64,000 nucleotides of DNA from Chitinophaga sp. (GCF_039596135.1 NZ_JBCNKH010000001.1:330781-394780), one strand, 5' to 3'; positions 40,307-60,660 are shown, counted from the first letter of the stretch. The notes: a model not told the origin generated them from the letters alone. Numbers and translations: made by a program.

Positions 40307-40681
40307 ATGAAAAATAAAGACTTAAAAAATAAAGCAGAAAATGAACACATTCCAAACCAGGATGAAATAGCAGCGAAAAGAGAGCAGACATTTCCGGGGT
40401 ATCCTACTTATCCTGCCAGCGAAGACATTATGAACCAGGAAGAGAGAGAAGAACTGGATGTGGAAGGTGTAACAGGATCCCGTAGAATCAACAATGAAAT
40501 AGCCCGGGAAGAAGGCTCCATTCCACAGGAATTTGATGATGAAGATGACCTGGATGTACCAGGCGGTGAGCTGGATGATGAAGATGAAATAATTGGTGAA
40601 GAAGATGAAGAAAATAATTATTACAGCTTAGGTGGAGACAGGCATGAAGACCTGGATGAAACGAACGAAGATGATATTTAA
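40307..40681 (+). CDS. hypothetical highly acidic protein
   Basis: 124-aa ORF with a very D/E-rich C-terminal half. No family recognised. Ends 4 nt from the convergent cls stop. Confidence 0.45.
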   Translation: MKNKDLKNKAENEHIPNQDEIAAKREQTFPGYPTYPASEDIMNQEEREELDVEGVTGSRRINNEIAREEGSIPQEFDDEDDLDVPGGELDDEDEIIGEEDEENNYYSLGGDRHEDLDETNEDDI

Positions 40682-42164: not shown

Positions 42165-42309
42165 GTGTGTTGATGGTTATGTAATAAAGGTAATACTGAA
42201 AATTATAAAGTGTTAATTTTCTATCTCATCAGGTATTGTACCAAATAATTATTAATATCATTCGTTCTAAAATAATTAGTAATTTTTTTGTTGTAATAAC
42301 AAACTGTAC

Positions 42310-45300
42310 ATGCAGGAATCAATCCTCTCCAAACTGGAAGCCTCAAGAAGGGAGCTACTCGACCTGGGACTGCGTAACCCTTTATTAAACTACCGCTTAC
42401 CGGTTAGTCGTGGAGTTCATATCGATCAGGAAAAGAGTGCCAACGTATATGAAGTGTTGGTGAAGCAGGGAAAGGCGATGACGTTTTTACCCAAACCAGG
42501 AAATAAAGAAAACAAGGAAAAAGCTATTACCCCGGAAGATAATACAGCCAGTATGCTGGACGACCCCAATGCATTTTTGAAAGAAGAAGTATTGGTAACT
42601 CCACCTGCTACTGACAATGCAGAACTTCCGAAGGAAGAGCAAAAAGAAGGATCTACCGCGCTACCTGAAACAGTAGTGTATGATACCCGTTTGCAAACTA
42701 CTGAAGCTGCTGCCGCACTACAAAACAGATTGCTCAATACTTACTATGCTGCACGTACCAGTTTGGAAGAACAAGGTGTGAATATTCTCTTCCTTACATT
42801 AGGTATGCTGCAGTGGTATGAAAAAGATAATACCAAAGAAGCAAGACAGGCGCCTTTGATATTGATACCGGTATCACTGGAAAGAAGTAGTGCCCGGGAA
42901 CGTTTTCGTTTGCGCTATACCGGTAGTGATGTAGAAATGAACTTAAGCTTACAAACCAAAATTAAAACTGATTTCGGAATTGTGTTGCCTGACATGCCGG
43001 AAACGGATGAAATTTCTATTAATGACTACCTGCAGGAAATAGCAGATGCGGTATATGGTATGCCGAAGTGGGAAGTGAAAATGGATACTGTTGAATTAGG
43101 ATTTTTCTCCTTCGGAAAACTAATGTTGTACCACGACCTGGATAGTGAAAACTGGCCTGCAGATGAACAACCGGTTGTACATCCTGTATTACAGAGTTTA
43201 TTCGGTGCAGGATTCAGTGAAGGGGAATCTGGTGTAAGTGATGAAACATTTATCGACACTGAAACCAATGCCCATGAAATGCACCAGGTAGTAGATGCAG
43301 ATGGTTCACAATTGCTTGCCATGCTCGCTGTGCAGGAAGGAAAAAACCTGGTGATACAGGGACCTCCCGGTACAGGTAAATCACAAACCATTACGAACCT
43401 GATTGCAAATGCAATTGGTGAAGGAAAGAAAGTACTCTTCGTTGCAGAAAAAATGGCAGCGCTGGAAGTGGTGAAGAGAAGGCTGGATAGTATTCAACTG
43501 GGCGATGCATGTTTAGAACTGCATAGTCATAAAGCAAATAAAAAAGAACTACACCAGGAACTGCGTCGTACACTGGAATTAGGTAAACCAGCAATCATGC
43601 AACTACAACAGGAAGTTGCGTTACTACATGAGTACAGACGTGAGTTGAATGATTACTGTTTAGCAGTGAATGCGCCTGTTGGTAAAAGTGGATTGACACC
43701 GCAACAACTGATGGGTTACCTGTTGCAATTAAAAGAAGCAGCAGGTGATCTGATTTTACCACGTATACCTATTCCTGACATTGCAAACTGGGAAGCCAGC
43801 AATATGCAACGTGCAGAGAATATGGCGAACAGAATCACTGCGCGATTAGGTGAAACAGGAATGCCGTCTGCATTATTGTTCTGGGGAAGTCAGCTAACTA
43901 TATTAACACCATCAGAACAGGAGAAGCTCATACCACTCATGCAACAAACTGTTGCCACTATCAAAAGCCTGCAACATGAAAGTGCAATGATTGCTGCGCA
44001 GGTAGGTATGCCCATGCCATTGAATAAGAAAGATACAATGGATCTTTCTTATGTAGTGCAGATGGCTTCTGTACGTCCTGATCTGGCAGGTGTGAATATT
44101 TCGAATGTAGCCTGGCTGCAAAGAAAAGAAGACATCAAAGAACTGTTGCAGACAGGAAAAAGATTAGCACAGATTCGCCAGGTGTATGATTCAATACTGA
44201 TACCAGAAGCATGGGAACAAAATGTGTTGGAGATCAGACAAAACCTGTTAGCATATGGTGAGAAATGGTTCAAGTTTGCTATTGGTGATTACAATCGAAG
44301 TAATCGCCAGCTGGCTGCTTTGTGTAGAAATGGTGCGCCTTCTGATGTGGCTGCGAAACTTGCTTGTGTAGACGCTATTATGGAAGCAAAGCGATTGGAT
44401 AAACAGGTGCAGGACTACGAAACACTTGCCAGGGATTTGTTTGGTCAGCGCTGGCAAAAAGGATTCAGTAACTGGAATGAGCTGGAAACAATCTCTAATT
44501 ATTTAAGTGATGTACACAGACAGGTTAATATAGGTTCATGCGATAAAGTGATTCTCTCTTATCTTGAAAAAAATGAACCGGTTGCTGCGGCAAAGCAATA
44601 CCTGGATACGCTGTTAAAATATTTACAGCAACATGGTACTGCTATCGAACAAATAGTTACAGCGACTGCATTCAATGAACAGATTCGTTACAAAGAAATC
44701 ACTCCTTTATTACAACGTTCTTACGAAGATCAGATTGTACTGTTGGAATCATGGATAGCAGGGTTGCCAGAAATCCATCTGATGATATCGTGGAATAATT
44801 TAGCAACATCTGCTATCAATGAAGGATTGGAATCTTTGATAGATGCAGTGGTTTATTGGCCGGAAGCACAGAAAGGATTGAAACCGGCTTTGCAAAAAAC
44901 ATGGTATGAATACCTGTATGAACAGGCATTGGTGAAGCATGCAGCACTGAGAAAATTTGAAAGAGCGAGTCATGAATCATCAGTGAAGCAGTTTGTAAAA
45001 CTGGATACACTCGATCTGCAATATAATCGTGCGCGTGCTGCGTTGAAACATTGGGATGGTATACCACCATTAGATGCGGGTGGACAAGTGAATGTACTAC
45101 GTACTGAATTCAATAAGAAAGCAAGACATATGCCTATCCGCAAACTGGTACAGGTAGCAGGATTGGCAATACAGGCTATCAAACCGGTATTTATGATGAG
45201 CCCATTGTCTATTGCTAACTTTTTACCACCAGGATCATTGCAGTTTGACCTGGTGATTTTTGATGAGGCTTCGCAGGTAAGACCGGTAGATGCATTAGGT

Positions 45301-47079
45301 GCATTGCTGAGAGGAAAGCAATTGGTTGTAGTTGGTGATAGCAAACAGATGCCACCAGGCAGTTTCTTTGATTCATTATTGAAAGAAACTGATGACGAAG
45401 AAAATGTAACTGCCGATATGCCAAGTATATTAGGGATGTGTGATGCACAGGGTGCACCACAACGTATGTTGCGCTGGCACTATCGTAGTCGTCATGAATC
45501 ATTGATCACATTATCTAATCAGGAATTTTACGAGAACAAACTGGTGATCTTTCCAAGCCCTGGTGCTACACATCAGATGGGATTGATTTATCATCACCTG
45601 AAAGATACTGTTTACGATCGTGGTAAGACGCGTACCAACCCGCAGGAAGCAAATGCTATTACAGAAGCAGTGATCAGGCATGCAAAAGAACATCCTGATT
45701 TAAGCTTAGGGGTAGTAGCATTTAGTACGGCACAGATGCAGGCGATACAGGAATCGCTGGAAGCAGCGAGAAAGAAACTGCCTGAAGTAGAATCATTCTT
45801 TAAAGCACATCCGCATGAACCATTCTTTGTAAAGAACCTGGAAAATGTACAGGGGGATGAGCGTGATGTTATTTACATCAGTATAGGATATGGCCGTACG
45901 GCAGATGGATCTGTAAGTTTAGCATTTGGTCCTTTGAATAATGAAGGCGGTGAGAAGAGGCTGAATGTATTAATTACGCGTGCAAAACAGAGATGCGAAG
46001 TATTTACGAACCTGACGGCTGATGACATAGATCTGAACCGTACGGATAGTGAAGGTGTGAAAGCGTTGAAGAACTTCCTCTACTTTGCACAGCATGGACA
46101 ATTGTATACATCATCTGCTGATGGATGGCCGGCAAGAATTCCTTTTGAGGAAGAAGTAGCGAAACACTTGCAGGCAGCAGGATATACTGTACATAAACAG
46201 GTGGGTAGTAAAGGCTTCTTTATTGATCTGGCTATTTCTGATCCTGAACATCCGGGTAAATATATTATAGGTATTGTGTGTGATGGTGAGGGGTATAATT
46301 CTGCACGTTCCGCCAGAGACAGAGATCGGTTGAGGCAACAGGTAATGGAAGATATGGGATGGAACTTGTATCATGTATGGAGTACGGATTGGTTCAGGCA
46401 TCCTGCCAGGGAAATTAAGCGATTATTAGCTGCGGTTGAACAGGCAAAAACGAATGAAGTAATTCCGGAACCGGAGCAGGAGGTAGCAGAAGATTTTACT
46501 ATGGTGAGAGAAGATGAAGATATGACGATGCCTGAATTACCATTGTATGAAACTGCCATACTGCCGATGGAAATATCTACGAAAGAATTGCATGCGCATG
46601 GGTTGGATAAACTAAGAAGCTGGTTAGAAAAAATTGTGCAGGTAGAGAGCCCGGTGCATACAGAAGAAGTAGCAAGAAGATTGATTGAGGCGGCAGGTGT
46701 AGCAAGAGTGGGTAGCCGTATACGTGAAACGTTGAAGCAGGCAATATCAAGTGCGGAGGAGAGTGGTAGTATAGTGGTGAAAGAACCATTCCTGTGGGAT
46801 GCAAAAATGGAAGTACCGGTATTGAGGAATAGGGCGAATATGCCTGCGGCATCAAGGAAAGTAATGTATATAGCACCGGAGGAAATGACGGTAGCAATAG
46901 AGAAAGTAGTGAGAGATGCGGTAGCGATTACAGAAGAAGCCGTGATACCGTTAGTGGCGAAGGCATTAGGTTTTACAAGGGCGACGGAAGATTTGAAAAC
47001 GGAATTATCAGGTGCGATAAAACAAGCGATTGAAGCAGGGGTGATACGTGAGGACGATGAATGGCTAAAAATAAATTAA
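42310..47079 (+). CDS. DUF4011-type Upf1-like SF1 helicase fused to a Vsr/DUF559-like PD-(D/E)xK endonuclease and a DUF3320-like C-terminus
   Basis: 1589 aa. N-terminus LLDLGLRNPLLNYR (DUF4011-like). Walker A GPPGTGKS (nt 43360-43383). Motif II DEASQ (45262-45276). VVGDSKQMPP, WHYRSRHESL, VITRAKQR. Nuclease-like FFIDLAISD...IGIVCDGEGYNSARSARDRDRLRQQVMEDMGWNLYHVWSTDWF. Confidence 0.85.
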   Translation: MQESILSKLEASRRELLDLGLRNPLLNYRLPVSRGVHIDQEKSANVYEVLVKQGKAMTFLPKPGNKENKEKAITPEDNTASMLDDPNAFLKEEVLVTPPATDNAELPKEEQKEGSTALPETVVYDTRLQTTEAAAALQNRLLNTYYAARTSLEEQGVNILFLTLGMLQWYEKDNTKEARQAPLILIPVSLERSSARERFRLRYTGSDVEMNLSLQTKIKTDFGIVLPDMPETDEISINDYLQEIADAVYGMPKWEVKMDTVELGFFSFGKLMLYHDLDSENWPADEQPVVHPVLQSLFGAGFSEGESGVSDETFIDTETNAHEMHQVVDADGSQLLAMLAVQEGKNLVIQGPPGTGKSQTITNLIANAIGEGKKVLFVAEKMAALEVVKRRLDSIQLGDACLELHSHKANKKELHQELRRTLELGKPAIMQLQQEVALLHEYRRELNDYCLAVNAPVGKSGLTPQQLMGYLLQLKEAAGDLILPRIPIPDIANWEASNMQRAENMANRITARLGETGMPSALLFWGSQLTILTPSEQEKLIPLMQQTVATIKSLQHESAMIAAQVGMPMPLNKKDTMDLSYVVQMASVRPDLAGVNISNVAWLQRKEDIKELLQTGKRLAQIRQVYDSILIPEAWEQNVLEIRQNLLAYGEKWFKFAIGDYNRSNRQLAALCRNGAPSDVAAKLACVDAIMEAKRLDKQVQDYETLARDLFGQRWQKGFSNWNELETISNYLSDVHRQVNIGSCDKVILSYLEKNEPVAAAKQYLDTLLKYLQQHGTAIEQIVTATAFNEQIRYKEITPLLQRSYEDQIVLLESWIAGLPEIHLMISWNNLATSAINEGLESLIDAVVYWPEAQKGLKPALQKTWYEYLYEQALVKHAALRKFERASHESSVKQFVKLDTLDLQYNRARAALKHWDGIPPLDAGGQVNVLRTEFNKKARHMPIRKLVQVAGLAIQAIKPVFMMSPLSIANFLPPGSLQFDLVIFDEASQVRPVDALGALLRGKQLVVVGDSKQMPPGSFFDSLLKETDDEENVTADMPSILGMCDAQGAPQRMLRWHYRSRHESLITLSNQEFYENKLVIFPSPGATHQMGLIYHHLKDTVYDRGKTRTNPQEANAITEAVIRHAKEHPDLSLGVVAFSTAQMQAIQESLEAARKKLPEVESFFKAHPHEPFFVKNLENVQGDERDVIYISIGYGRTADGSVSLAFGPLNNEGGEKRLNVLITRAKQRCEVFTNLTADDIDLNRTDSEGVKALKNFLYFAQHGQLYTSSADGWPARIPFEEEVAKHLQAAGYTVHKQVGSKGFFIDLAISDPEHPGKYIIGIVCDGEGYNSARSARDRDRLRQQVMEDMGWNLYHVWSTDWFRHPAREIKRLLAAVEQAKTNEVIPEPEQEVAEDFTMVREDEDMTMPELPLYETAILPMEISTKELHAHGLDKLRSWLEKIVQVESPVHTEEVARRLIEAAGVARVGSRIRETLKQAISSAEESGSIVVKEPFLWDAKMEVPVLRNRANMPAASRKVMYIAPEEMTVAIEKVVRDAVAITEEAVIPLVAKALGFTRATEDLKTELSGAIKQAIEAGVIREDDEWLKIN

Positions 47080-47080
47080 C

Positions 47081-47111
47081 AAAAAGGTCCTGCCAGAGGC
47101 AGGACCTTTTT
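47081..47111. terminator. bidirectional terminator shared by the helicase-nuclease gene and the vWA/AAA+ operon
   Basis: AAAAAGGTCCTGCC-AGA-GGCAGGACCTTTTT lies in the 38-nt gap between the two convergent stop codons. Confidence 0.85.
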
Positions 47112-47117
47112 GTTAAT

Positions 47118-48248
47118 TTATTTTTTTAATACAAGATCTTCTCTTGCTGCCCAGGTATTTATATCCTGTTTACTCAACGCGGCTGCCATCATATCGGGAA
47201 ACTTATCCGGCGTACATGCAAATACAGGAATACCCAAATTGGAAAGGAACTGTGCATTGTCATGATCGTAATAAGGTGCACCATCATCATTCAATGCGAG
47301 TAATACAATGACCTGTACACCAGCGGCTACTAATTCGGCAGCGCGCTTACGCATACGATCATTACTACCCCCTTCAAATAAGTCAGTGATTAACACTAAT
47401 ACGGTATCTGTTGGCCTGGTAATAATCTGCTGGCAATAATTTAGTGCTAACTGTATATCTGTGCCACCACCCAACTGTACACCGAATAACAAATCGACCG
47501 GATCTTTCAGTTCTTCTGTCAGATCAGCCACAGATGTGTCGAAGACCACCATCTTTGTTTTGATAGCAGGAATAGATGCCATTACAGAACCGAAAATACC
47601 GGAGTATACAACTGATGTACCCATAGAGCCACTCTGGTCCAGGCAGAGCACGACGTCTTTTAATGAGGTCGTTTTGCGGCCATAGCCAATGCGGGTTTCA
47701 GGAATAATTGTTTTATACTCAGGCTGATAGTGACGCAGGTTTTTTAAGATGGTCGCATGCCAGTTGATTTCATTATGTTTAGGACGACGATTCCTGATAC
47801 TGCGATGTAAGCTACCGGTGATTGCCTGTTGTGTGGGCTGTGTGAGTTTCTTCAATAGTTCTTCCACGACCCTGCGTACTACCTGTCTGGCAGTATCTTT
47901 TGTTTTGTCAGGAATGGCGTGGCGCAATGTTAATAAGGTTGCTACCAAGTGAACATCAGGTTCTACATTTTCCAGCATCTCTTTTTCAAAGAGCATCTGT
48001 GTAATGTTCAATCGCTGCAGTGCATCGCGCTGCATGACCTGCACCACAGAAGCAGGGAAGAATGTACGGATGTCACCGAGCCAACGGCTTACGTTAGGAG
48101 AGGAGGGACCGAGTCCGCCTTTCTTTTCACTATCGTAGAGTGCTTCCAGTGCCTGGTCCATTTTCAATTCGTCGCCAGTGAGATTGAAACCTGTGCCGTC
48201 AGATTCTTTACCACCGAGTACGAGTCGCCATTTATGTAAGTTGTCCAT
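47118..48248 (-). CDS. CoxE-type von Willebrand factor A domain protein (YehP-like)
   Basis: 376 aa. The N-terminal helical region is typical of the VWA_CoxE family. MIDAS motif DQSGS at nt 47639-47625. Start is 4 nt after the upstream stop. Confidence 0.8.
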   Translation of the reverse strand: MDNLHKWRLVLGGKESDGTGFNLTGDELKMDQALEALYDSEKKGGLGPSSPNVSRWLGDIRTFFPASVVQVMQRDALQRLNITQMLFEKEMLENVEPDVHLVATLLTLRHAIPDKTKDTARQVVRRVVEELLKKLTQPTQQAITGSLHRSIRNRRPKHNEINWHATILKNLRHYQPEYKTIIPETRIGYGRKTTSLKDVVLCLDQSGSMGTSVVYSGIFGSVMASIPAIKTKMVVFDTSVADLTEELKDPVDLLFGVQLGGGTDIQLALNYCQQIITRPTDTVLVLITDLFEGGSNDRMRKRAAELVAAGVQVIVLLALNDDGAPYYDHDNAQFLSNLGIPVFACTPDKFPDMMAAALSKQDINTWAAREDLVLKK

Positions 48249-48252
48249 TGAT

Positions 48253-50478
48253 TTAGTTTTTAAAGCCCAGCATTTTCATCACAATCGGAATACCTTTTTC
48301 TGCACGTGTTGCATCAAAATGCACTTCGGCAGTTGTTGATACAGCATTGCCTGTAGTAACACCGCTCTTTGCTTTTTCACCGAGCTTTCTTCTTTCAGGT
48401 TTACTGAATCCTGAAAATGTTCTTCTCAGTAAAGGTAGCAATTGAGTAAATGTATCCTGGTTCAGCTGATTCATCCAGTTGTTTACCACTGTCCACAGAT
48501 CATTGTCTACTAACAATAATGTGCCACTGCCTTTTAAGAAGCCTTCCAGCCATGCTGCAGCTACTGCAGGAGGATTGGCGGTAGACATGGCATAACTGAA
48601 TGCTTTCACCAGCTCTGCACCTGTAATTTGCCTGTGATCAGACAGTAAGCGGGTAGCATATCCACCGATCACGGCGGAGGTGTTATTATTATGAGCGATA
48701 TAAGATAATGTCTGTTGCCATTGTGTGCTAAGATCATCCTGTTGCAATAAGAGAATCGCATCGTTCATGTTGTAGAATAACTCCAGCAATTGTAATGCGG
48801 CATCTTCTGCAATACTTGTACAGGCAGCAGGCAAACTGATGCAGGTGCGGGTGATCATACCGTTAATGATACCTTCTACCAGCGCTGCGTCTGTTTTACG
48901 TACGTTGCCATATCTGCTTATTTGTACCAGGTTTGGTAGTACCGTCATTAGCTGCATGACATCGCCGGTAGCAGCAGCGAGGTTATTGATTTGCTGGATC
49001 AATAAGTCGATAGCAGCATCCAATTCGGCGGGAATAGCGCTTTCCAGTAAGTCGCATACTTCTTTCAGGGTAGTAGCTGATTGTGCCCGATATTTTACAT
49101 AACTGTTGGTTGCCTCTTCTACAGTGTTGCCCCAGCTACCCCGTTCAATGATATCAATGGATAAAGACGGATCCCATTGTAAGCGCCATTGTTCCTTGAA
49201 AGTGCCTTTGCCGGATACATCGTATCGGTCCCCCCATTTGATACCTAGCAATTCCAGGCGGTGCAGGAAGATGCTTCGCTCCAGGTCATTTTCTTTTCTG
49301 AGGTCTAAAGTGTAATCTTTGAAATCGGCGGTCTGTGGTAAGCGCAGTTTCTTTTGCAGCTTTTCAATGTCTGTCTGTAATGGTGGACGAGGTACATCGA
49401 TAGGTACTTCACCAATCTTATCACTGACGATCAATGCTTTTTCAATCAGTTTGACCAGGATGTCTTCCCCATTACACAATACACTCAACGTGGCTTCATT
49501 CAGTTCTTCCAAACCGGGTCTTGGTAAACCACGTAAGGATGCTAATGCAGTTGCCAGACGAACAGCTTCCATCACATGTGCAACAGAAATATCTTTTTGT
49601 TCTTCCCTGAAGAGTCTTGCTACGCGTGCCATCCAGCGGGAGCCATCATCGGTGGGATAGTGCCACAGGTGCTCATACCAACCGGGTGAATTGATGCCTG
49701 CACCATAACCACTGTTGTAACTCAAACGGTTATATGTCCAGGGTACCCACGATACCGCCGTTTTTACTTTGGGCAATCCTTTCAGCAGTTCATTGTCATC
49801 TTTTGCTTTGGGCATGTGCGTGAGTGCTGGTGCATGCCATGCACCACATACTACGGCAATTTCTGTGTACATTTCCTTTTCTGCCTGCCGGATGGTTTTA
49901 CGCATCCAGGCTTCACGCAATTGTTCTTCCCTGTCGTAGGGGAGCGGGAGGTCTGTACGCAGGGCATGCATGCCTTCGGTAATGGCATCGAATACCTGCT
50001 CTTCATCCTGCCGGTATTCAAATTCATGTTCCCACCAGGTTTCTTCTTCTTCAAAACCGGCAGCAGCAGCCAGCCATGCAATAGGATTGCGCCTGAGCGT
50101 TTCTGCATCCGGAATAGCAATGCTATTATTTAAAGAAGAATCAGCAGTAGGTTGATGACGCAGGTCAAACTGATACGCCATTGGCAGATCCATGAATTTA
50201 ACAGGAATCTTATTTTGTCTTGCATATAGTATTGCCTGCCACTCCGGAGAGAATTCCGAGAATGGATAGAACACTGCTTTTTTTGGATCATCGGGTTGGA
50301 ATACGAGAATCGCTACCGGAGGTTTCAATTCATCATGTCCCACCCATTCCAGTATACCATCGGCATCTGGCGGGCCTTCTACCAGCACGATGTCCGGTTT
50401 GATCTTTTCCAGGGCAGCGCGCACTCTCCTGGCAGAGCCGGGACCATGATGCCGTATGCCCAGTATATGAGTTGACAT
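48253..50478 (-). CDS. DUF5682-like protein (YehM-like), function unknown
   Basis: 741 aa. N-terminus MSTHILGIRHHGPGSARRVRAALEKIKPDIVLVEGPPD, as I recall for the DUF5682/YehM family. Start is 9 nt after the AAA+ stop. Confidence 0.7.
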   Translation of the reverse strand: MSTHILGIRHHGPGSARRVRAALEKIKPDIVLVEGPPDADGILEWVGHDELKPPVAILVFQPDDPKKAVFYPFSEFSPEWQAILYARQNKIPVKFMDLPMAYQFDLRHQPTADSSLNNSIAIPDAETLRRNPIAWLAAAAGFEEEETWWEHEFEYRQDEEQVFDAITEGMHALRTDLPLPYDREEQLREAWMRKTIRQAEKEMYTEIAVVCGAWHAPALTHMPKAKDDNELLKGLPKVKTAVSWVPWTYNRLSYNSGYGAGINSPGWYEHLWHYPTDDGSRWMARVARLFREEQKDISVAHVMEAVRLATALASLRGLPRPGLEELNEATLSVLCNGEDILVKLIEKALIVSDKIGEVPIDVPRPPLQTDIEKLQKKLRLPQTADFKDYTLDLRKENDLERSIFLHRLELLGIKWGDRYDVSGKGTFKEQWRLQWDPSLSIDIIERGSWGNTVEEATNSYVKYRAQSATTLKEVCDLLESAIPAELDAAIDLLIQQINNLAAATGDVMQLMTVLPNLVQISRYGNVRKTDAALVEGIINGMITRTCISLPAACTSIAEDAALQLLELFYNMNDAILLLQQDDLSTQWQQTLSYIAHNNNTSAVIGGYATRLLSDHRQITGAELVKAFSYAMSTANPPAVAAAWLEGFLKGSGTLLLVDNDLWTVVNNWMNQLNQDTFTQLLPLLRRTFSGFSKPERRKLGEKAKSGVTTGNAVSTTAEVHFDATRAEKGIPIVMKMLGFKN

Positions 50479-50487
50479 AATATGCGT

Positions 50488-51564
50488 TTACAGGTCCCGG
50501 AATGCCCGGTAAATATCTTTCCACTCGTCTCTTGTTTTGATGACAGTTTCGAGGTATTCCTGCCATACAATTTTATCCTGCACAGGATCTTTGATTACAG
50601 CGCCGATAATACCTGCTGCAAGATCTGCTGCTTTGAGCGCGCCATCCCCAAAGTAAGCCGCCATTGCCAGCCCATTGTTCACTACAGAAATAGCTTCGGC
50701 AGTGCTGAGTGTTCCGCTTGGTACTTTGATCTTGGTCTTGCCATCGGCAGTAATACCGCTACGCAGTTCACGGAAGATGGTAACGATACGACGAATCTCT
50801 GCCAGTGCTGGTTTTTCGGCCGGGAGGTCCATTACTTTTTCATAGCTTTCTACTCTTCTCTTCACGATGTCGATCTCTTCTTCCATATTGTCAGGAACAG
50901 GAAGAATAACGGTATTAAAACGGCGTTTTAAGGCGCTGGAAAGGTCGTTTACACCTTTGTCCCTGTTATTGGCTGTGGCGATGATATTAAAGCCTTTTTG
51001 GGCCATTATTGCTGTGTTCAGCTCAGGGATAGGGAGTGTTTTTTCAGAGAGGATGGTGATGAGTGTATCCTGTACATCTGCACCGATACGGGTCAGCTCT
51101 TCAATACGGGCGATCTTACCATCTTTCATAGCGCGCATCACGGGTGTTTCCACGATAGCGCCTGTGGTAGGACCTTCTGCCAGCAGGCGGGCATAGTTCC
51201 AGCCATAACGGATGGCTTCTTCACCGGTACCGGCAGTACCCTGTACGATCATGGTAGAATCACCGCTAATAGCTGCTGCAAGATGTTCGCTCACCCAGCT
51301 TTTGGCAGTACCTGGCAAACCGTAGAGCAACAATGCCCGGTCGGTAGTAAGGGTTGCTACGGCGATTTCCATGAGACGGCGGTTACCAATGTATTTAGGT
51401 TGTACTTCAAATCCATTTTTCAGGGTACCACCAATGAGGTAAGTAACAACAGCTTGTGGAGATAGTTTCCACATATAAGGACGCTTTTCAGTATCCTGCT
51501 TTTGCAGTTCTTCCAGTTCCTGTGCGAACAGCTGTTCCGCGTGTTGACGTAAAATGTTGGACAT
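50488..51564 (-). CDS. MoxR/AAA_5-type AAA+ ATPase (YehL-like)
   Basis: 358 aa. Walker A GLPGTAKS (nt 51321-51298), Walker B-like KIARIEE, ATANNRD and ALKRRF. Confidence 0.85.
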   Translation of the reverse strand: MSNILRQHAEQLFAQELEELQKQDTEKRPYMWKLSPQAVVTYLIGGTLKNGFEVQPKYIGNRRLMEIAVATLTTDRALLLYGLPGTAKSWVSEHLAAAISGDSTMIVQGTAGTGEEAIRYGWNYARLLAEGPTTGAIVETPVMRAMKDGKIARIEELTRIGADVQDTLITILSEKTLPIPELNTAIMAQKGFNIIATANNRDKGVNDLSSALKRRFNTVILPVPDNMEEEIDIVKRRVESYEKVMDLPAEKPALAEIRRIVTIFRELRSGITADGKTKIKVPSGTLSTAEAISVVNNGLAMAAYFGDGALKAADLAAGIIGAVIKDPVQDKIVWQEYLETVIKTRDEWKDIYRAFRDL

Positions 51565-51587
51565 TTTTTATCTGCTTAAAAAGGTGA

Positions 51588-53063
51588 TCATTTTGTATTC
51601 AAGAAAGCTTTATTGATCGCTGCTTTGCAGGTCAATAATCTTTTGATATGTTCTGAGGTATTCTTCCAGGTGGCCTGGTAGGCGGGTAGTTCAGGGGTAA
51701 AGCTTTCCAGTTCGCCTGCGATTAACAAGGGTATATTCTGTACCTGCTTGTCAAAGAAGTTGCGGTTGTACTGGTAAGGGTTTTTAGCAATCCATTTGAA
51801 CAGTTCCCTGGTAATGGGCAGGCCCCATTCATAATCGCGTTCGCTGAGAAAGCGGATCATGAATTGTGGTTCTTTTTCAAAGTATTTGAGCGCATAAGCT
51901 TCCTGTTCGTGAACGGGTAATGCCTCCAGCGCATCTTTGAAAAACTCTTTACTTTCTTTCAGGATCAGCTGTAGCCATTCCAGGTCTTTGAAGCGGATAG
52001 CTGCTAAACCTAATGCCTGCATGAAATGCTGTGTGATCTCTGTATTATTAAAATAAGAGAGTACGCCTTTTTTATCAGTGTCCAGGTAGTTTTCCCACCA
52101 GGCAGGAGGTACATAAGTCGTGAGCTGAAAGAGAATGAAAGCATCGTCGCTCACACTTTTGGAACTACTTAATAATTGAATACCGGAATCAGCAATCCGT
52201 TTATCAGAAGGGAGTTGCAATGAGATGTCCAGCGACTTTTTATTCAGCAATCCTTTTTTAGTAGGGGTGATGCTTTGTTGTAATAACTGCCAGTAAGCCT
52301 GGATGATAGAAGACGTGGGCAATTGTTTGAGCAATGTCCAGGTTTCGTCTTTTACTTTTGAGCTTTTGTCAGTGAGCAGTGTTTCCAGCCAGGGCACATC
52401 TTCTTCGCCGGCATTGATTTGCAACACTTTCAGGAGTTCGGCACGGGTGGCAGCGTTTTCCTGTGACCATGTTTGCTGCAGCCATTCCCTGGCTTGTGCG
52501 GGGTTTTCCTGTCTTATAGTAGACAGTACCTGTTTGCGATCTTCCAGTGATCCTGTCTGCCAGTGATCTTCGTTGGTATCTGCTTTTTTGAATGCCCAGG
52601 CAGGATTGAGTTGCCCCAGCCATTCACCTCTTTTACCACAAACGGTGACAGTCAGACTTCTCCATTGTTTTTCCCTGATAGACATATCCATCAGGATAGG
52701 AATGAATTCAGGTGGCGCCAGTTGTTGTGCTGCTGCGCAGGCTTCCATCCAATAGAGGATCAGTGCCTGCAGACCCATGTCGATGGCAGTGTATAATGCC
52801 TGCCATGCAGCAGCACTGCAATAGGGCAGTACTTCGGCAGGTGCAGCTTCGAGGGTGACGCTACTGTCCTGCAGGGCAGTGACGCCGCTCTGGCGATAGT
52901 TGAGCGCAATAGCGGCAAGGTGCAGAAACTGTGTTTCCACATCCAGCGATTTATCTCCCAATACGGTATCAGCTACAGCAGATAATGCAGGGGGGAGATC
53001 GTCTTTGCGCAGTTGTTTTTTGCCTGTACCTAACAGGACGGTGTTAACAATATTATTCCACAT
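51588..53063 (-). CDS. DUF5691-like all-helical protein, function unknown
   Basis: 491 aa from ATG 53063 (MWNNIVNTVLLGTGKK). The track start at 53114 would overlap the SWIM gene by 35 nt. Helical-repeat-like composition. Always next to the SWIM protein in this cluster type (recall). Confidence 0.65.
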   Translation of the reverse strand: MWNNIVNTVLLGTGKKQLRKDDLPPALSAVADTVLGDKSLDVETQFLHLAAIALNYRQSGVTALQDSSVTLEAAPAEVLPYCSAAAWQALYTAIDMGLQALILYWMEACAAAQQLAPPEFIPILMDMSIREKQWRSLTVTVCGKRGEWLGQLNPAWAFKKADTNEDHWQTGSLEDRKQVLSTIRQENPAQAREWLQQTWSQENAATRAELLKVLQINAGEEDVPWLETLLTDKSSKVKDETWTLLKQLPTSSIIQAYWQLLQQSITPTKKGLLNKKSLDISLQLPSDKRIADSGIQLLSSSKSVSDDAFILFQLTTYVPPAWWENYLDTDKKGVLSYFNNTEITQHFMQALGLAAIRFKDLEWLQLILKESKEFFKDALEALPVHEQEAYALKYFEKEPQFMIRFLSERDYEWGLPITRELFKWIAKNPYQYNRNFFDKQVQNIPLLIAGELESFTPELPAYQATWKNTSEHIKRLLTCKAAINKAFLNTK

Positions 53064-53079
53064 AAGTTTTGTCCCGCGA

Positions 53080-54375
53080 TTACAATAGTTTATAAGAGCC
53101 GTTGTGCCATGCACCTAAAGGTTCGTATTGTTGTTCTTTGCCCAGCAGCGCCATGTTCAGCGGTTGACCGCCGCTGAGGGCGAGTAGCTTCCAGATGTTT
53201 GCATAGCCGGTTTTCAGTGGCATCAGTCTTTCTTCCTGGTCTTTGAGCCACCATTGCAAATTGTGTTGTACAGGGGTTAGTTGCTGTACAATGTAAGGTC
53301 GCTCGCTGCGCACAGGCATCAGTTCGAACAGTGAAGTTTCTGTATCTGTGACCTGTGTCCAGCCTTGCATACCTGTTACTTCAGGCAGGGAGATGTTGGA
53401 GACAGGATATTTAATGATAGCTCTGAGTGGCGTAGGTGAAGGGAAGTAGACCAGTTCGCCCAGTAGTGCAATACCCGGTGTAATCAATACTTCGGGCCGG
53501 GTCTGGTTCTTGACATAAAATTGTAGTACCAGGGCAGACCGCTGACTATGCTGACCATAGAGCCAGTAGCGCTCTGTGACCAGGTTTTCTTCTTCATTGA
53601 TCTGTTTACTGAGTACCAGCCAGGTATCTTTGATGCCTGTTTGTTGCTTGAGGGCTTCCTGGTTCTGGGTAAAGCCGATTAACGTGCGGAGTTCCTGTTG
53701 TAGCGGTTCATTCAAACCAGCACTTTGGGTATACCCCTGTACTACAAGATAGATGCGTAGCAGCTGATCGAGAAAGGCATTCTGCCAGCCTTCGCTATAG
53801 AAGTTCGTTTCGCCAAGGGCGCGTACCATTCCGGCAAGACCGGATGCCTGTGCATCGACCATTCTCCTGGCCATATTTTCCCAGTAAGCGTCTCCTTTTT
53901 CAGGGATCTGCAGCAGTCCATTGCGAACAATGTCTTTCATCCAGAGCATGAGTTCTGTGATACCATCAGCTACTTTTTGCTGGCGTGCCTGTAGTCTTTT
54001 GGCCTGTGCATTTTCGTCTACGGGTTTATCAGTTTTTTCTACTTTCTTTTCAGCCCGTTTGGATAGCCATTCACTCACCCATGCAGGAGGGGTATTGTCT
54101 GTGAAGGTATCTTTTTGCCGGGCATACAGGAGCATGAGTCCAATACCGTGTTTGCAGGGGAATTTACGACTGGGGCAGCTGCATTTGAAGGCTACGTTTA
54201 CGATGTCTACCTGGGTTTGATACGGCTTGCTGCCGCTACCCTGGCATTCCCCCCATAAGGCGTCGGTGTTGGCGCCTTTGCTTACCCATTTTCCCGGACT
54301 TGCCAATGCGGATCCCGCTTTTCGGGAAGCGTCGTCCGGGGCTAAACCTATTACATGTTCTTCTGTCAGGAGCAA
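53080..54375 (-). CDS. SWIM zinc finger domain protein (YehQ-like)
   Basis: 431 aa. SWIM CxCxnCxH = C65-S-C67-PSRKFP-C74-K-H76 (nt 54183-54148). Apparent TTG start with no in-frame ATG nearby. Begins 16 nt after the upstream membrane-protein gene. Confidence 0.75.
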   Translation of the reverse strand: MLLTEEHVIGLAPDDASRKAGSALASPGKWVSKGANTDALWGECQGSGSKPYQTQVDIVNVAFKCSCPSRKFPCKHGIGLMLLYARQKDTFTDNTPPAWVSEWLSKRAEKKVEKTDKPVDENAQAKRLQARQQKVADGITELMLWMKDIVRNGLLQIPEKGDAYWENMARRMVDAQASGLAGMVRALGETNFYSEGWQNAFLDQLLRIYLVVQGYTQSAGLNEPLQQELRTLIGFTQNQEALKQQTGIKDTWLVLSKQINEEENLVTERYWLYGQHSQRSALVLQFYVKNQTRPEVLITPGIALLGELVYFPSPTPLRAIIKYPVSNISLPEVTGMQGWTQVTDTETSLFELMPVRSERPYIVQQLTPVQHNLQWWLKDQEERLMPLKTGYANIWKLLALSGGQPLNMALLGKEQQYEPLGAWHNGSYKLL

Positions 54376-54391
54376 TGGAGTAGATATTTAA

Positions 54392-54730
54392 TTATACAAA
54401 GATGAATGAATACAGCCGGACGTAAATCATGACGATGTACGCCAGCAGGATGACTGCGTTCAATACCAGCAGCCAGTTGTAATCAATGACGGAGTATTTC
54501 TTTTTGATCACAAGAATGATCAGGGTAAGCAGACCTACAAAGAGCAGGGCAGGAGCAATCAGGGTTAGTTTATTTGGGATGACGAAGTGTGCATTTTCCA
54601 GTCTTTTGCTCCACGGTTGTTCGCCGGTGATAAAAGGGAGTGCGCCTACAAATACGATGATGACAAATAAACGGATAGCCGATTTTGCTGCGATTTTGCT
54701 GATCTTAAGAGCCCTTGTTTCCTTTTCCAT
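54392..54730 (-). CDS. small integral membrane protein (3 predicted TM helices)
   Basis: 112-aa ORF with three long hydrophobic segments. Packed between two same-strand genes with gaps of 20 and 16 nt. Confidence 0.55.
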   Translation of the reverse strand: MEKETRALKISKIAAKSAIRLFVIIVFVGALPFITGEQPWSKRLENAHFVIPNKLTLIAPALLFVGLLTLIILVIKKKYSVIDYNWLLVLNAVILLAYIVMIYVRLYSFIFV

Positions 54731-54750
54731 GATTGATTAATTAGTGGTCA

Positions 54751-60584: not shown

Positions 60585-60587
60585 CTG

Positions 60588-60660
60588 TGGTGAGGGCCGG
60601 AATCGAACCGGCGACACAAGGATTTTCAGTCCTTTGCTCTACCAACTGAGCTACCACACC
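60588..60660 (-). tRNA. tRNA-Phe (GAA)
   Basis: Minus-strand read: GGTGTGGTAGCTCAGTTGGTAGAGCAAAGGACTGAAAATCCTTGTGTCGCCGGTTCGATTCCGGCCCTCACCA. Cloverleaf with anticodon loop CTGAAAA (GAA) and T-loop GGTTCGATTCC. No encoded CCA. Confidence 0.93.

What the first reader, a model, noticed from the sequence alone, without database searches (positions are those of the whole stretch)
42310..47079. 1589-aa DUF4011 - Upf1-like SF1 helicase - Vsr/DUF559-like nuclease - DUF3320 fusion, a single-gene defence-like architecture
Seen in the sequence:
- a DUF4011-like N-terminus (LLDLGLRNPLLNYR)
- a complete SF1 helicase motif set (GPPGTGKS, DEASQ, VVGDSKQMPP, WHYRSRHESL, VITRAKQR)
- a PD-(D/E)xK, Vsr-like block (FFIDLAISD ... 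IGIVCDGEGYNSARSARDRDRLRQQ ... YHVWSTDWF)
- a roughly 200-aa C-terminal extension

Established knowledge: Upf1-like helicases fused to nucleases occur in several validated anti-phage proteins. As I recall, the single-gene Hhe system reported in the 2020 Gao et al. defence-gene screen has this DUF4011-helicase-Vsr layout. That recollection needs an HMM check.

Inference: this is a stand-alone nucleic-acid-targeting immunity or repair enzyme. It converges on the SWIM/MoxR/vWA operon and shares one bidirectional terminator with it (47081-47111).
Basis: partly seen in the sequence, partly recalled or inferred. Interest (0 to 1): 0.7.

Follow-up and report, generated by a model that had tools for sequence, protein, structure and literature searches.

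The report
Hhe/ProA-like helicase-nuclease, candidate phage defence
This is an intact 1589-residue single-gene helicase fused to a nuclease-like domain, from a widespread and already catalogued family of candidate anti-phage proteins; it is a relative of Hhe rather than Hhe itself, and two usual nuclease active-site residues are replaced.

Summary
The ORF (42310-47079, +) and its domain order are real: DUF4011, a Upf1-like SF1 helicase split by a 545-aa insert, an MTES_1575 (Vsr/DUF559-like) nuclease fold, and DUF3320 (tandem winged helices).

It is not Hhe: the NCBIfam Hhe model scores 1018 bits against a cut-off of 2000. It matches the untested PADLOC candidate PDC-S37 end to end (2053 bits). 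It just passes NCBI's "anti-phage protein ProA" model (1575 vs 1500) but lacks that model's first ~350 positions.

It acts alone. No partner gene is conserved, and the link to the SWIM/MoxR/vWA operon is only positional.

The organism is a Chitinophaga. There the gene sits in a variable slot beside cardiolipin synthase:
- empty in C. vietnamensis
- occupied by other candidate defence genes in C. japonensis
- vertically kept, where present, down to 58% identity, with dN/dS about 0.04

The window protein reads IVCDGEGYN where Hhe and ProA read IECDGAAYH. The Glu and His found in about 70-76% of relatives are gone, so cleavage activity is uncertain.

Verdict: a new member of a known candidate-defence family, of modest interest.

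The parts
42165..42309 (.). 145-bp AT-rich divergent intergenic region between cardiolipin synthase (- strand) and the helicase gene; presumed promoter region
   Evidence: Sequence read. No Bacteroidota-type TAnnTTTG motif was found in 42101-42312 by a simple regex. The sigma-70 scan is not appropriate for Bacteroidota. The promoter is not located.
42310..47079 (+). Complete CDS, 1589 aa: PDC-S37 / ProA-like helicase-nuclease
   Evidence: ORF. PADLOC PDC-S37 scores 2053 bits over 1-1587 vs 1-1545/1550. NCBIfam ProA scores 1574.6 bits against a cut-off of 1500. dN/dS is 0.036-0.044 against 93-95% identical orthologues.
42310..43299 (+). N-terminal module, residues 1-330 (Pfam DUF4011 = 15-217); fold unknown; includes a variable acidic low-complexity linker at about 63-124
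   Evidence: Pfam hit 6e-42. The AF2 model has mean pLDDT 66, with a confident beta-sheet core at about 127-267, and no PDB fold match with E<0.4. Many residues are invariant down to 33% identity.
43300..43569 (+). Helicase RecA1 first part with Walker A GPPGTGKS (residues 351-358; K357)
   Evidence: AAA_11 332-405. K357 is invariant in 142/142 relatives. dN/dS is 0.000-0.013.
43570..45204 (+). 545-aa insert between Walker A and Walker B (residues 421-965); specific to this subfamily
   Evidence: Matched by the PDC-S37 profile (457 bits). The Hhe profile matches only residues 866-965 of it. Least conserved of the large regions in alignment A2. dN/dS is 0.045-0.059. No structure prediction was run on this part.
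45205..46029 (+). Rest of the SF1B helicase core: motif II DEASQ (985-989), III VVGDSKQMPP, IV-like WHYRSRHESL, VI LITRAKQR
   Evidence: AAA_12 1047-1234. PDB sequence hits to the Sen1 helicase core over 970-1228. D985, E986, Q1013, R1059 and R1224 are invariant in 142/142. dN/dS is 0.002-0.006.
46144..46434 (+). MTES_1575 (Vsr/DUF559-like PD-(D/E)xK) nuclease fold, residues 1279-1375; V1323 (46276-46278) and N1330 (46297-46299) replace the family's usual Glu and His
   Evidence: Pfam hit 2e-35. The AF2 model matches 3HRL (DUF559), 3R3P (I-Bth0305I) and RAP domains with Foldseek probability about 1.0. E1280, D1306, D1325, Y1329, R1338, R1342 and S1358 are invariant in 142/142. Position 1323 is E in 99/142 and position 1330 is H in 108/142.
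46585..47076 (+). C-terminal DUF3320 region = tandem winged-helix domains (residues 1426-1589)
   Evidence: Pfam DUF3320 1426-1473. The AF2 model has pLDDT about 90 here. Fold matches to the tandem winged helices of SelB (probability 0.96-0.99). Anantharaman et al. 2013 (PMC3710099) equate DUF3320 with wHTH.
47067..47125 (.). Bidirectional intrinsic-terminator-like hairpin shared with the convergent vWA gene
   Evidence: Arms of 28 nt, 100% complementary, with a 3-nt loop and T-runs on both strands.
42165..54750 (.). Variable slot between cardiolipin synthase and the carotenoid-synthase-like gene; here it holds the helicase, the vWA/DUF5682/MoxR/DUF5691/SWIM operon and a 112-aa ORF
   Evidence: C. 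vietnamensis has the two flanking genes directly adjacent. C. japonensis has PDC-S02 in the slot. C. pendula has the helicase plus RtcB/PrfH. No flanking repeats were found in 41900-55000. No integrase or tRNA gene was seen in the slot: Pfam and NCBIfam hits of its genes are, and the only tRNA found in 30000-64000 is tRNA-Phe at 60587-60660.

Best explanation
**What it is.** The gene encodes a stand-alone, about 180-kDa nucleic-acid surveillance enzyme. It belongs to the DUF4011 / Upf1-like SF1B helicase / Vsr-like nuclease family. More precisely, it belongs to the Bacteroidota-type subfamily with a DUF3320 winged-helix tail, which PADLOC lists as candidate PDC-S37. That subfamily is sister to the anti-phage proteins Hhe and ProA.

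**Most likely role.** It is an accessory, single-gene defence against invading DNA (phage or plasmid).

**Proposed mechanism.**
- The N-terminal DUF4011 module and the 545-aa insert between Walker A and Walker B hold or gate the motor. (Inferred.)
- On engaging a suitable nucleic-acid substrate, the SF1B core hydrolyses ATP and translocates 5'->3'. (Inferred from the Upf1/IGHMBP2/Sen1 family.)
- The tandem winged helices and the Vsr-like domain bind the DNA and nick or cut it. (Inferred from the fold, and from the loss of Hhe defence when its Vsr-domain residue E1731 is mutated; bioRxiv 10.1101/2022.06.16.496414.)

**What is shown.** The architecture, the invariance of the motor motifs, strong purifying selection on every domain, family membership by HMM, the absence of any conserved partner, and presence/absence polymorphism at the locus.

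**What is not shown.** Any activity, any target, or any phage phenotype.

**Caveat specific to this protein.** The Glu and His of the family's IECDGxxYH motif are V1323 and N1330. Either cleavage runs on the remaining invariant E1280/D1306/D1325 set, or the domain only binds DNA.
For: - **Defence-family HMMs.** PADLOC PDC-S37 matches full-length at 2053 bits, and PADLOC Hhe gives 747 bits. NCBIfam ProA gives 1574.6 bits, above its 1500 cut-off.
- **Similarity to named anti-phage proteins.** 41-42% identity to E. coli/Klebsiella Hhe in the two core blocks, and 32-33% to a full-length ProA.
- **Hhe is a validated, accessory defence gene.** It is reported active against lambda, T3, T7 and PhiV-1 and dependent on its Vsr-domain residue E1731. 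It occurs in 309 of 5426 complete E. coli genomes. In the one E. coli genome inspected it lies in an island with type I R-M and two DUF262 genes.
- **The gene's slot in Chitinophaga is variable.** It is empty in C. vietnamensis. It holds PADLOC candidate PDC-S02, with PDC-S01 nearby, in C. japonensis. Its contents differ again in C. oryzae and C. costaii.
- **Mobile context elsewhere.** A 51% identical copy lies on a Hymenobacter plasmid beside a 1053-aa SIR2 protein and a recombinase.
- **Horizontal transfer.** The tree within Bacteroidota disagrees with taxonomy, and Chitinophaga holds two lineages of the gene.
- **Stand-alone.** No partner gene is conserved in 34 loci.
- **Functional protein.** All helicase motifs and most nuclease-fold residues are invariant in 142 relatives. 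dN/dS is about 0.04.
Against: - PDC-S37 is only a bioinformatic candidate. No paper was found for it or for ProA.
- The protein lacks the first ~350 positions of the ProA profile and passes that cut-off only marginally.
- Where present at the cls locus, the gene is vertically inherited and as stable as its housekeeping flanks. Helicase identity runs 95/73/58%, against lactonase 92/69/56% and cardiolipin synthase 95/82/71%.
- No integrase or flanking repeats were found.
- In 21 non-syntenic loci, the 124 nearest neighbours are mostly TonB/SusD/ABC-type genes. No PADLOC family among the 25 most frequent was hit by more than 2 of them.
- A large DUF4011 gene is reported as core in all P. aeruginosa isolates, where it merely flanks a defence hotspot. 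I did not check whether that gene belongs to this family. If it does, that is a route by which guilt-by-association lists can pick up non-defence genes.
- V1323 and N1330 replace the Glu and His of the nuclease motif. The Glu is probably the residue whose mutation abolishes Hhe defence.
Confidence: 0.5

Rival explanations
1. Housekeeping genome-maintenance helicase. It would be a Sen1/IGHMBP2-like 5'->3' translocase that clears R-loops, stalled transcription complexes or protein-DNA roadblocks, or processes damaged DNA. The Vsr-like and winged-helix domains would serve as the DNA-binding or incision module. Its appearance in defence catalogues would come only from homology and neighbourhood statistics.
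For: - Long vertical retention next to cls/lactonase/MnmG/YbeY, at the same divergence rate as those genes.
- dN/dS of about 0.04 with no fast-evolving domain.
- Neighbours in other Bacteroidota are mostly metabolic or transport genes.
- In C. vietnamensis the copy lies beside a uracil-DNA glycosylase and near a MutS-family gene.
- The closest solved relatives are the Sen1 and IGHMBP2 helicase cores.
- A DUF4011 gene is reported as core in P. aeruginosa, and a copy was found on the Ralstonia megaplasmid in 105 plasmid records.
Against: - The gene is missing from the slot in C. japonensis, C. oryzae, C. costaii and C. vietnamensis.
- The tree is incongruent with taxonomy.
- Copies exist on plasmids beside SIR2 or IS elements.
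- Some Ralstonia copies are interrupted by a group II intron or IS5, so the gene is dispensable there.
- The nearest named relatives are annotated as anti-phage.
Confidence: 0.27
2. Nuclease-dead derivative. In the cls-linked Chitinophaga lineage the Vsr-like domain has lost catalysis (E->V/M/T, H->N/Q) and is kept as a DNA-recognition module. The protein would then act purely as an ATP-driven translocase or remodeller, for example stripping proteins or blocking replication of foreign DNA, or as a sensor. This could sit within either a defence or a housekeeping role.
For: - The window reads IVCDGEGYN against IECDGAAYH in Hhe and ProA.
- The whole syntenic clade lacks the Glu. At that position the residue varies freely (V, M, T, N, S, D, I, C, L, Q), while neighbouring residues are invariant.
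- The Hhe E1731A mutant loses defence, and the only Glu nearby in RefSeq Hhe is the IECDG Glu, E1727.
- From memory, not tested here: the motif D-G-x-x-Y-H lines up with Vsr H64-G-C-F-W-H69, and H69 is catalytic in Vsr.
Against: - E1280, D1306, D1311, D1325, R1338 and R1342 stay invariant in the same sequences.
- The domain's dN/dS is 0.03-0.05. That fits a still-functional metal site.
- The mapping of E1731 is inferred from a 4-residue offset and is not verified.
- 13 relatives have M/H and 5 have E/A, so the two positions are lost independently. They may simply be non-essential in this subfamily.
Confidence: 0.15
3. Functional partner of the adjacent SWIM / DUF5691 / MoxR / DUF5682 / vWA operon, the two forming one system that shares a terminator.
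For: The helicase and the operon are adjacent and convergent in the window and in C. silvisoli, a Chitinophaga MAG, C. agri, C. rhizophila and C. pinensis. Both lie within the same variable slot.
Against: - They are convergently transcribed.
- C. pendula keeps the helicase at the same place without the operon.
- None of 27 other loci (L003-L029), from other Bacteroidota, other phyla and archaea, has any of the five operon genes within 10 kb.
- No conserved neighbour cluster was found.
- The operon proteins hit no PADLOC model.
Confidence: 0.04
4. It is simply an orthologue of Hhe (the Gao et al. 2020 system).
For: Same order of DUF4011, SF1 helicase and MTES_1575 nuclease. 41-42% identity in the cores. 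The PADLOC Hhe model scores 747 bits.
Against: - NCBIfam Hhe scores 1018 bits, below its 2000 cut-off, while true Hhe scores 2735.
- The Hhe profile does not cover residues 420-865 or 1390-1589.
- Hhe has no DUF3320.
- Hhe is a deep outgroup to the Bacteroidota clade, at 33.6% identity over shared columns.
Confidence: 0.03

Closest known systems
PADLOC PDC-S37 (single-gene 'phage defence candidate', PADLOC-DB v2.0.0)
   Same: End-to-end profile match: protein 1-1587 against profile 1-1545/1550, 2053 bits. Every segment of the protein is covered, including the insert and the C-terminal tail. It is a single gene, in line with the absence of any conserved partner.
   Different: Nothing architectural differs. 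PDC-S37 is a bioinformatic candidate with no published test that I could find. This member carries V/N at two usually conserved nuclease positions.
ProA (NCBIfam NF058533.1, 'anti-phage protein ProA'); full-length example on a Klebsiella michiganensis IncFIB plasmid (L041:3612-9503, 1963 aa)
   Same: DUF4011, SF1 helicase, MTES_1575 nuclease and the DUF3320 tail all in the same order. The score of 1574.6 is above the curated cut-off of 1500.
   Different: The window protein lacks profile positions 1-353, an N-terminal domain of about 370 aa with no Pfam match. Identity is only 32-33%. ProA has IECDG..YH/VECDG..YH where the window has IVCDG..YN. The pass is marginal, whereas the full-length ProA scores 2222. 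The source publication was not found.
Hhe (Gao et al. 2020; NCBIfam NF042953.1; PADLOC PDLC02194), 1911 aa in E. coli and Klebsiella
   Same: A single-gene DUF4011 / Upf1-like helicase / MTES_1575 (Vsr-like) nuclease. 41-42% identity in the DUF4011+RecA1 block and the RecA2+nuclease block.
   Different: - Score below the family cut-off (1018 vs 2000).
- A different, longer insert.
- No DUF3320 tail.
- Hhe is present in 309 of 5426 complete E. coli genomes and on Klebsiella IncF plasmids; in the E. coli genome and the Klebsiella plasmid inspected it lies beside DUF262 genes, with a type I R-M system (E. coli) or IS elements (plasmid).
- The Chitinophaga gene sits between housekeeping genes and is vertically inherited.
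MTES_1575-type polyvalent proteins (Anantharaman, Makarova, Burroughs, Koonin, Aravind 2013, PMC3710099)
   Same: SF1 helicase, 'novel Vsr-REase', then two wHTH domains that overlap DUF3320. The nuclease domain here is the Pfam family named after that protein.
   Different: MTES_1575 itself also carries HEPN and transglutaminase domains. Neither is present here.
Mokosh MkoA / MkoC helicases
   Same: Upf1-like (AAA_11/AAA_12) helicase core. Partial PADLOC hits of 102 and 83 bits to the motor only.
   Different: Mokosh pairs or fuses the helicase with a PLD nuclease. It has no DUF4011, Vsr-like domain or DUF3320. The adjacent PLD protein here is a bona fide cardiolipin synthase (TIGR04265, 454 bits against a cut-off of 290), not MkoB.
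Eukaryotic Upf1-like SF1B helicases (IGHMBP2, Sen1)
   Same: These are the only solved structures with detectable sequence similarity. The similarity covers the RecA1 and RecA2 motifs.
   Different: Similarity is restricted to the motor (E 6e-9 to 2e-4). They have no DUF4011, nuclease or DUF3320.

Membership tests
PADLOC PDC-S37 | Full-length match to the PDC-S37 HMM as the best PADLOC hit | tested here: met
   PDLC05009, E=0, 2053.5 bits, protein 1-1587 vs profile 1-1545/1550. All five segments match when scanned separately.
PADLOC PDC-S37 | Single-gene system (no obligatory partner) | tested here: met
   All-against-all clustering of neighbours in 34 loci finds no cluster that travels with the helicase outside close relatives.
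PADLOC PDC-S37 | Demonstrated anti-phage activity | not testable with these tools
   It is a candidate only. No paper mentions PDC-S37 in the searchable library.
ProA (NCBIfam NF058533.1) | Score at or above the curated equivalog cut-off (1500 bits) | tested here: met
   1574.6 bits. This is marginal: a full-length ProA scores 2222 and a Ralstonia relative 1522.
ProA (NCBIfam NF058533.1) | Full-length architecture including the N-terminal ~350-residue region of the profile | tested here: not met
   The match starts at profile position 354. The ORF starts 145 bp after the divergent cls gene, so there is no room for an upstream exon or domain.
ProA (NCBIfam NF058533.1) | DUF3320 / winged-helix C-terminal tail | tested here: met
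   Pfam DUF3320 at 1426-1473. Fold matches to the tandem winged helices of SelB. ProA also has DUF3320.
Hhe (NCBIfam NF042953.1 / Gao_Hhe) | Score at or above the curated equivalog cut-off (2000 bits) | tested here: not met
   1018.1 bits in two stretches. E. coli/Klebsiella Hhe scores 2735.
Hhe (NCBIfam NF042953.1 / Gao_Hhe) | DUF4011 - SF1 helicase - Vsr-like (MTES_1575) nuclease domain order | tested here: met
   Pfam on both proteins.
Hhe (NCBIfam NF042953.1 / Gao_Hhe) | Intact nuclease motif IECDGxxYH, whose Glu is probably the residue required for defence (E1731A) | tested here: not met
   The window has IVCDGEGYN (V1323, N1330) and Hhe has IECDGAAYH. The E1731A phenotype is from bioRxiv 10.1101/2022.06.16.496414. 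Mapping E1731 to the IECDG Glu (E1727 in RefSeq Hhe) is inferred, not verified.
Hhe (NCBIfam NF042953.1 / Gao_Hhe) | DefenseFinder Gao_Hhe model call | not testable with these tools
   DefenseFinder models are not available here. The PADLOC Hhe model gives a partial hit of 747 bits that is outscored by PDC-S37.
Upf1-like SF1B helicases | Complete motif set (Walker A, DExx, III, IV, VI) and AAA_11/AAA_12 signatures | tested here: met
   K357, D985, E986, Q1013, R1059 and R1224 are invariant in 142/142 relatives.
Vsr / DUF559-like PD-(D/E)xK nucleases | The fold | tested here: met
   Pfam MTES_1575 2e-35. The AF2 model (pLDDT 79.6) matches 3HRL, 3R3P and RAP domains with Foldseek probability about 1.0 and target-normalised TM-scores of 0.63-0.78. 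Foldseek E-values are only 7e-3 to 0.1.
Vsr / DUF559-like PD-(D/E)xK nucleases | Catalytic competence | tested here: inconclusive
   E1280, D1306 and D1325 are invariant, but the usual Glu (1323) and His (1330) are V and N.

The most novel reading that the evidence does not exclude
The cls-linked Chitinophaga lineage would be a 'domesticated' descendant of an Hhe/ProA-type defence helicase-nuclease. It has been fixed at one chromosomal locus since before the divergence of C. pendula and C. sancti. It has lost the canonical Glu/His of its Vsr-like active site while keeping every motor motif under strong constraint. It now works without DNA cleavage, as an ATP-driven translocase or sensor used for genome maintenance or for a non-degradative form of immunity. 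The free variation at position 1323 across many Bacteroidota lineages would then mark repeated, independent shifts of this kind.
Probability: 0.15. Interest if true: 0.55.

Novelty: new member of a known kind. Interest (0 to 1): 0.3.

Why it matters
There are thousands of homologues: more than 8000 database clusters passed E<=1e-10 in a capped search. They are widespread in Bacteroidota and also occur in Planctomycetota, Acidobacteriota, Pseudomonadota and archaea. Defence finders label them from homology alone.

This case shows three things:
- The label should read 'PDC-S37 / ProA-like', not 'Hhe'.
- Such a gene can be vertically stable and sit among housekeeping genes while still being dispensable at the genus level.
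- A sizeable part of the subfamily, including this protein, has lost two signature nuclease residues.

That gives a concrete and cheap experiment for deciding whether these proteins defend by cutting DNA at all: test wild type against V1323E/N1330H and D1306A. It also warns against counting every such hit as a working defence system in defensome surveys of soil Bacteroidota.

Tried and rejected
- **Literature.** Nothing was found on PDC-S37 or on an anti-phage 'ProA', so the experimental basis of the ProA name is unknown to me. Searches on 'HheA' and 'Gao_Hhe' gave only noise.
- **Solved structures by sequence.** Only the IGHMBP2 and Sen1 motor cores were hit. There is no Hhe or ProA structure. 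The nuclease domain alone gave only a non-significant RAP-domain hit, E 0.33.
- **Fold of the DUF4011 module.** The AF2 model had pLDDT 66 and no PDB match (best E 0.43), so the fold stays unassigned.
- **Conserved partner gene.** None was found.
- **Link to the vWA/MoxR/SWIM operon.** Rejected.
- **Mokosh-like pairing with the adjacent PLD protein.** Rejected, because that protein is a cardiolipin synthase above the TIGR04265 cut-off.
- **Mobile-element hallmarks around the slot.** No direct repeats. No integrase among the genes annotated. No tRNA closer than 60587. G+C content is not distinctive.
- **Phage-borne copies.** Only 3 weak partial hits in 50,697 phage records.
- **ProA in E. coli genomes by DNA similarity.** No match.
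- **Promoter.** The sigma-70 scan is uninformative for Bacteroidota, and no TAnnTTTG motif was seen upstream.
- **Defence enrichment of neighbours.** I could not count how many of the 124 neighbour proteins have any PADLOC hit, because the tool lists only the top 25 families. The defence enrichment of neighbourhoods therefore remains semi-quantitative.


Full report
**1.

A single ATG-initiated ORF of 1589 codons runs from 42310 to 47079 on the + strand.

Pfam gives five domains:
- DUF4011, residues 15-217, 6e-42
- AAA_11, the first Upf1-like SF1 helicase half
- AAA_12, the second helicase half
- the restriction-endonuclease-fold family MTES_1575, residues 1279-1375, 2e-35
- DUF3320, residues 1426-1473, 2e-15

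Walker A (K357) and Walker B (D985/E986) are separated by a 545-residue insert.

The only solved structures with sequence similarity are the IGHMBP2 and Sen1 helicase cores, so 'Upf1-like' is right.

The shared terminator is a perfect inverted repeat with 28-nt arms at 47067-47125.

**2. Which family it belongs to**

| Model | Result |
|---|---|
| PADLOC PDC-S37 | 2053 bits, end to end (1-1587 vs 1-1545/1550) |
| PADLOC Hhe | 747 bits; matches only 124-416 and 866-1389, not most of the insert or the C-terminal 200 aa |
| NCBIfam Hhe equivalog | 1018 bits, below its 2000 cut-off |
| NCBIfam 'anti-phage protein ProA' | 1574.6 bits vs cut-off 1500; profile positions 1-353 unmatched |

I fetched reference proteins from plasmids and E. 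coli genomes to calibrate these scores:
- True Hhe (1911 aa, E. coli and Klebsiella) scores 2735 on its own model and has no DUF3320.
- A full-length ProA (1963 aa, K. michiganensis plasmid) scores 2222. It has an extra N-terminal region of about 370 aa with no Pfam match, followed by the same four modules as the window protein.

BLASTP identity is 41-42% to Hhe in two core blocks and 32-33% to ProA.

In a neighbour-joining tree built on 1451 shared columns, the Bacteroidota proteins form one tight clade. Hhe and ProA are deep, roughly equidistant outgroups.

The gene is therefore a member of the PDC-S37 subfamily. It is a sister of Hhe and ProA and a full member of neither. I found no paper on PDC-S37 or ProA.

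**3. Folds**

An AF2 model of residues 1240-1589 (mean pLDDT 79.6) matches two sets of solved structures:
- DUF559/Vsr-like nucleases 3HRL and 3R3P, and RAP domains, with Foldseek probability about 1.0
- the tandem winged helices of SelB

This agrees with Anantharaman et al. 2013 (PMC3710099). They described MTES_1575 as an SF1 helicase, a novel Vsr-type REase and two wHTH domains overlapping DUF3320.

The DUF4011 module (model pLDDT 66) has no PDB fold match.

**4. Organism and locus history**

The window comes from a Chitinophaga close to C. silvisoli and C. sancti. The helicase is 95% identical to the C. silvisoli protein, and the cardiolipin synthase is 96% identical to that of C. sancti.

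What lies beside the cardiolipin synthase gene (cls) in each species:

| Species | Content of the slot |
|---|---|
| Window, C. silvisoli, a Chitinophaga MAG, C. agri, C. rhizophila, C. pinensis | helicase, then the vWA/DUF5682/MoxR/DUF5691/SWIM operon |
| C. pendula | helicase (58% identical), then PrfH-like RF-1/RtcB instead of the operon |
| C. japonensis | a DUF1016/YhcG nuclease (PADLOC PDC-S02, 4.5e-142), with PDC-S01 nearby |
| C. oryzae, C. costaii | unrelated genes |
| C. vietnamensis | empty: the carotenoid-synthase-like gene directly abuts cls |

In the first two rows the upstream order is also conserved: YbeY - MnmG - lactonase - small ORF - cls - helicase.

C. vietnamensis does carry a helicase copy, but elsewhere in the genome, beside a uracil-DNA glycosylase. 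That copy belongs to a different lineage.

Window coordinates 42165-54750 are therefore a variable slot. I found no flanking repeats, integrase or nearby tRNA gene.

Where the gene is present at this slot, its divergence tracks that of its flanks:

| Gene | Identity to the window across three steps of divergence |
|---|---|
| Helicase | 95 / 73 / 58% |
| Lactonase | 92 / 69 / 56% |
| Cardiolipin synthase | 95 / 82 / 71% |

This indicates vertical descent with losses.

**5. Context elsewhere**

- No partner gene is conserved in 34 loci.
- In 21 non-syntenic loci the six nearest genes are mostly TonB/SusD/ABC-type. Among the 25 most frequent PADLOC families, none was hit by more than 2 of the 124 proteins; these were reverse-transcriptase models and mad3.
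- A 51% identical copy lies on a Hymenobacter plasmid beside a 1053-aa SIR2 protein and a recombinase.
- Some Ralstonia megaplasmid copies are interrupted by a group II intron or IS5.
- Phage genomes essentially lack the gene.
- E. coli Hhe is present in 309 of 5426 complete genomes. In the one genome inspected it lies in an island with type I R-M and two DUF262 genes.
- A large DUF4011 gene is reported to be core in P. aeruginosa and to flank a defence hotspot (bioRxiv 10.1101/2022.11.11.516204). I did not check that it belongs to this family. It is a reminder that neighbourhood-based candidate lists can include non-defence genes.

**6. Selection and active sites**

dN/dS against the 93-95% identical orthologues is 0.036-0.044 overall:
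- 0.000-0.013 in the motor
- 0.03-0.05 in the nuclease fold
- 0.045-0.059 in the insert

In 142 relatives, all helicase motif residues are invariant. So are E1280, D1306, D1325, Y1329, R1338, R1342 and S1358 of the nuclease fold.

Two positions of the family signature IECDGxxYH behave differently:

| Position | Usual residue | In the window |
|---|---|---|
| 1323 | Glu in 99/142 | Val |
| 1330 | His in 108/142 | Asn |

The whole cls-linked Chitinophaga clade lacks the Glu, carrying V, M or T instead. Many Sphingobacteriia and Flavobacteriia copies also lack one or both residues, and the replacements vary freely.

A preprint reports that E1731A abolishes Hhe's defence, which was weak in their assay. 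In RefSeq Hhe the only nearby Glu is E1727, the IECDG Glu. The residue needed in Hhe is therefore probably the one missing here. This mapping is inferred, not verified.

Whether this protein still cuts DNA cannot be decided in silico.

**7. Interpretation**

| Reading | Confidence |
|---|---|
| Accessory, single-gene nucleic-acid surveillance enzyme of the Hhe/ProA/PDC-S37 kind | about 0.5 |
| Housekeeping genome-maintenance helicase | about 0.27 |
| Nuclease-dead derivative acting as a translocase or sensor | about 0.15 |
| Functional partner of the vWA/MoxR/SWIM operon | 0.04 |
| Hhe proper | 0.03 |

In the leading reading, the protein most probably acts against invading DNA through ATP-driven 5'->3' translocation. 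This is coupled to DNA binding and possibly incision by the Vsr-like and winged-helix C-terminus. DUF4011 and the insert would be regulatory or sensing parts. That mechanism is inferred from the domains and from Hhe.

The last two readings are contradicted: the operon link by the synteny data and Hhe membership by the HMM cut-offs.

**8. Verdict**

The locus shows both accessory and long-term resident behaviour.

This is a new member of a known, catalogued candidate family. The one feature worth following up is the eroded nuclease signature.

Noticed in passing
window 47118-54375 (- strand), plus the 112-aa ORF at 54392-54730: A five-gene operon, in order of transcription on the - strand: SWIM-zinc-finger protein, DUF5691, MoxR-type AAA_5 ATPase, DUF5682 (741 aa) and VWA_CoxE. 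It has no PADLOC or NCBIfam family. It is itself a variable cassette. It is present with the helicase in the window, C. silvisoli, C. agri, C. rhizophila and C. pinensis. It is absent from the same slot in C. pendula, C. japonensis, C. vietnamensis, C. oryzae and C. costaii. Its function is unknown.
   Followed up: partly
window 42165-54750; loci L032, L036, L037, L038, L045: The site between cardiolipin synthase and the carotenoid-synthase-like/MFS/RpiA genes behaves as a chromosomal hotspot in Chitinophaga. Its cargo differs by species: helicase plus vWA operon; helicase plus RtcB/PrfH/230-aa ORF/DMP19/ADH; PDC-S02 nuclease (with PDC-S01 nearby); a 677-aa protein with no family; or nothing. 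No integrase or repeats were seen in the window.
   Followed up: partly
window 46276-46278 and 46297-46299 (V1323, N1330); alignment of 142 relatives: Two signature positions of the Vsr-like domain (the Glu and His of IECDGxxYH) vary freely in many Bacteroidota lineages, while flanking residues are invariant. Thirteen relatives have M/H, and others have N/A, D/G, S/A, C/E and so on. This looks like repeated relaxation at the catalytic centre in an otherwise highly constrained protein.
   Followed up: yes
window 40307-40681 (+), 124-aa ORF: A small ORF between the lactonase and cls genes. It is conserved in position in all syntenic Chitinophaga loci (51-89% identity) but has no Pfam, NCBIfam or PADLOC family.
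   Followed up: no
L032 14675-17403 (C. pendula): An RtcB RNA ligase, an RF-1-family (PrfH-like) protein and an unannotated 230-aa ORF sit directly downstream of the helicase. This is where the window has the vWA operon. None hits PADLOC.
   Followed up: partly
plasmid hits H33 (AP024158.1) and H21 (CP071915.1), Ralstonia solanacearum megaplasmid: The ProA-like gene of some Ralstonia strains is split by a group II intron reverse transcriptase/maturase or an IS5-family element, while about 100 other records have it intact. This is natural knock-out material for testing dispensability.
   Followed up: no
L043 4404-7565 and 8962-13791 (Hymenobacter sp. HDW8 plasmid): A 51% identical helicase-nuclease lies next to a 1053-aa SIR2-family protein and a recombinase on a 303-kb plasmid. 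The search reported 3 matching places in this record; the other two were not examined.
   Followed up: partly
L041 3612-4730 (K. michiganensis ProA, residues 1-370): The N-terminal ~370 residues that distinguish full-length ProA from the window protein have no Pfam match at E<=1e-4. This domain may be the part that defines ProA's specificity.
   Followed up: no
L044 7823-8497 and 17344-19458 (C. vietnamensis): The second-lineage Chitinophaga copy of the helicase sits beside a uracil-DNA glycosylase gene and about 4 kb from a MutS_V/MSSS (MutS2-like) gene. This may be chance, but it is worth checking in other genomes as a hint of a repair context.
   Followed up: no
window 1-30000: This part of the window was not examined beyond base composition. 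G+C rises to 0.49-0.51 at 12-22 kb, against 0.39-0.44 around the helicase.
   Followed up: no
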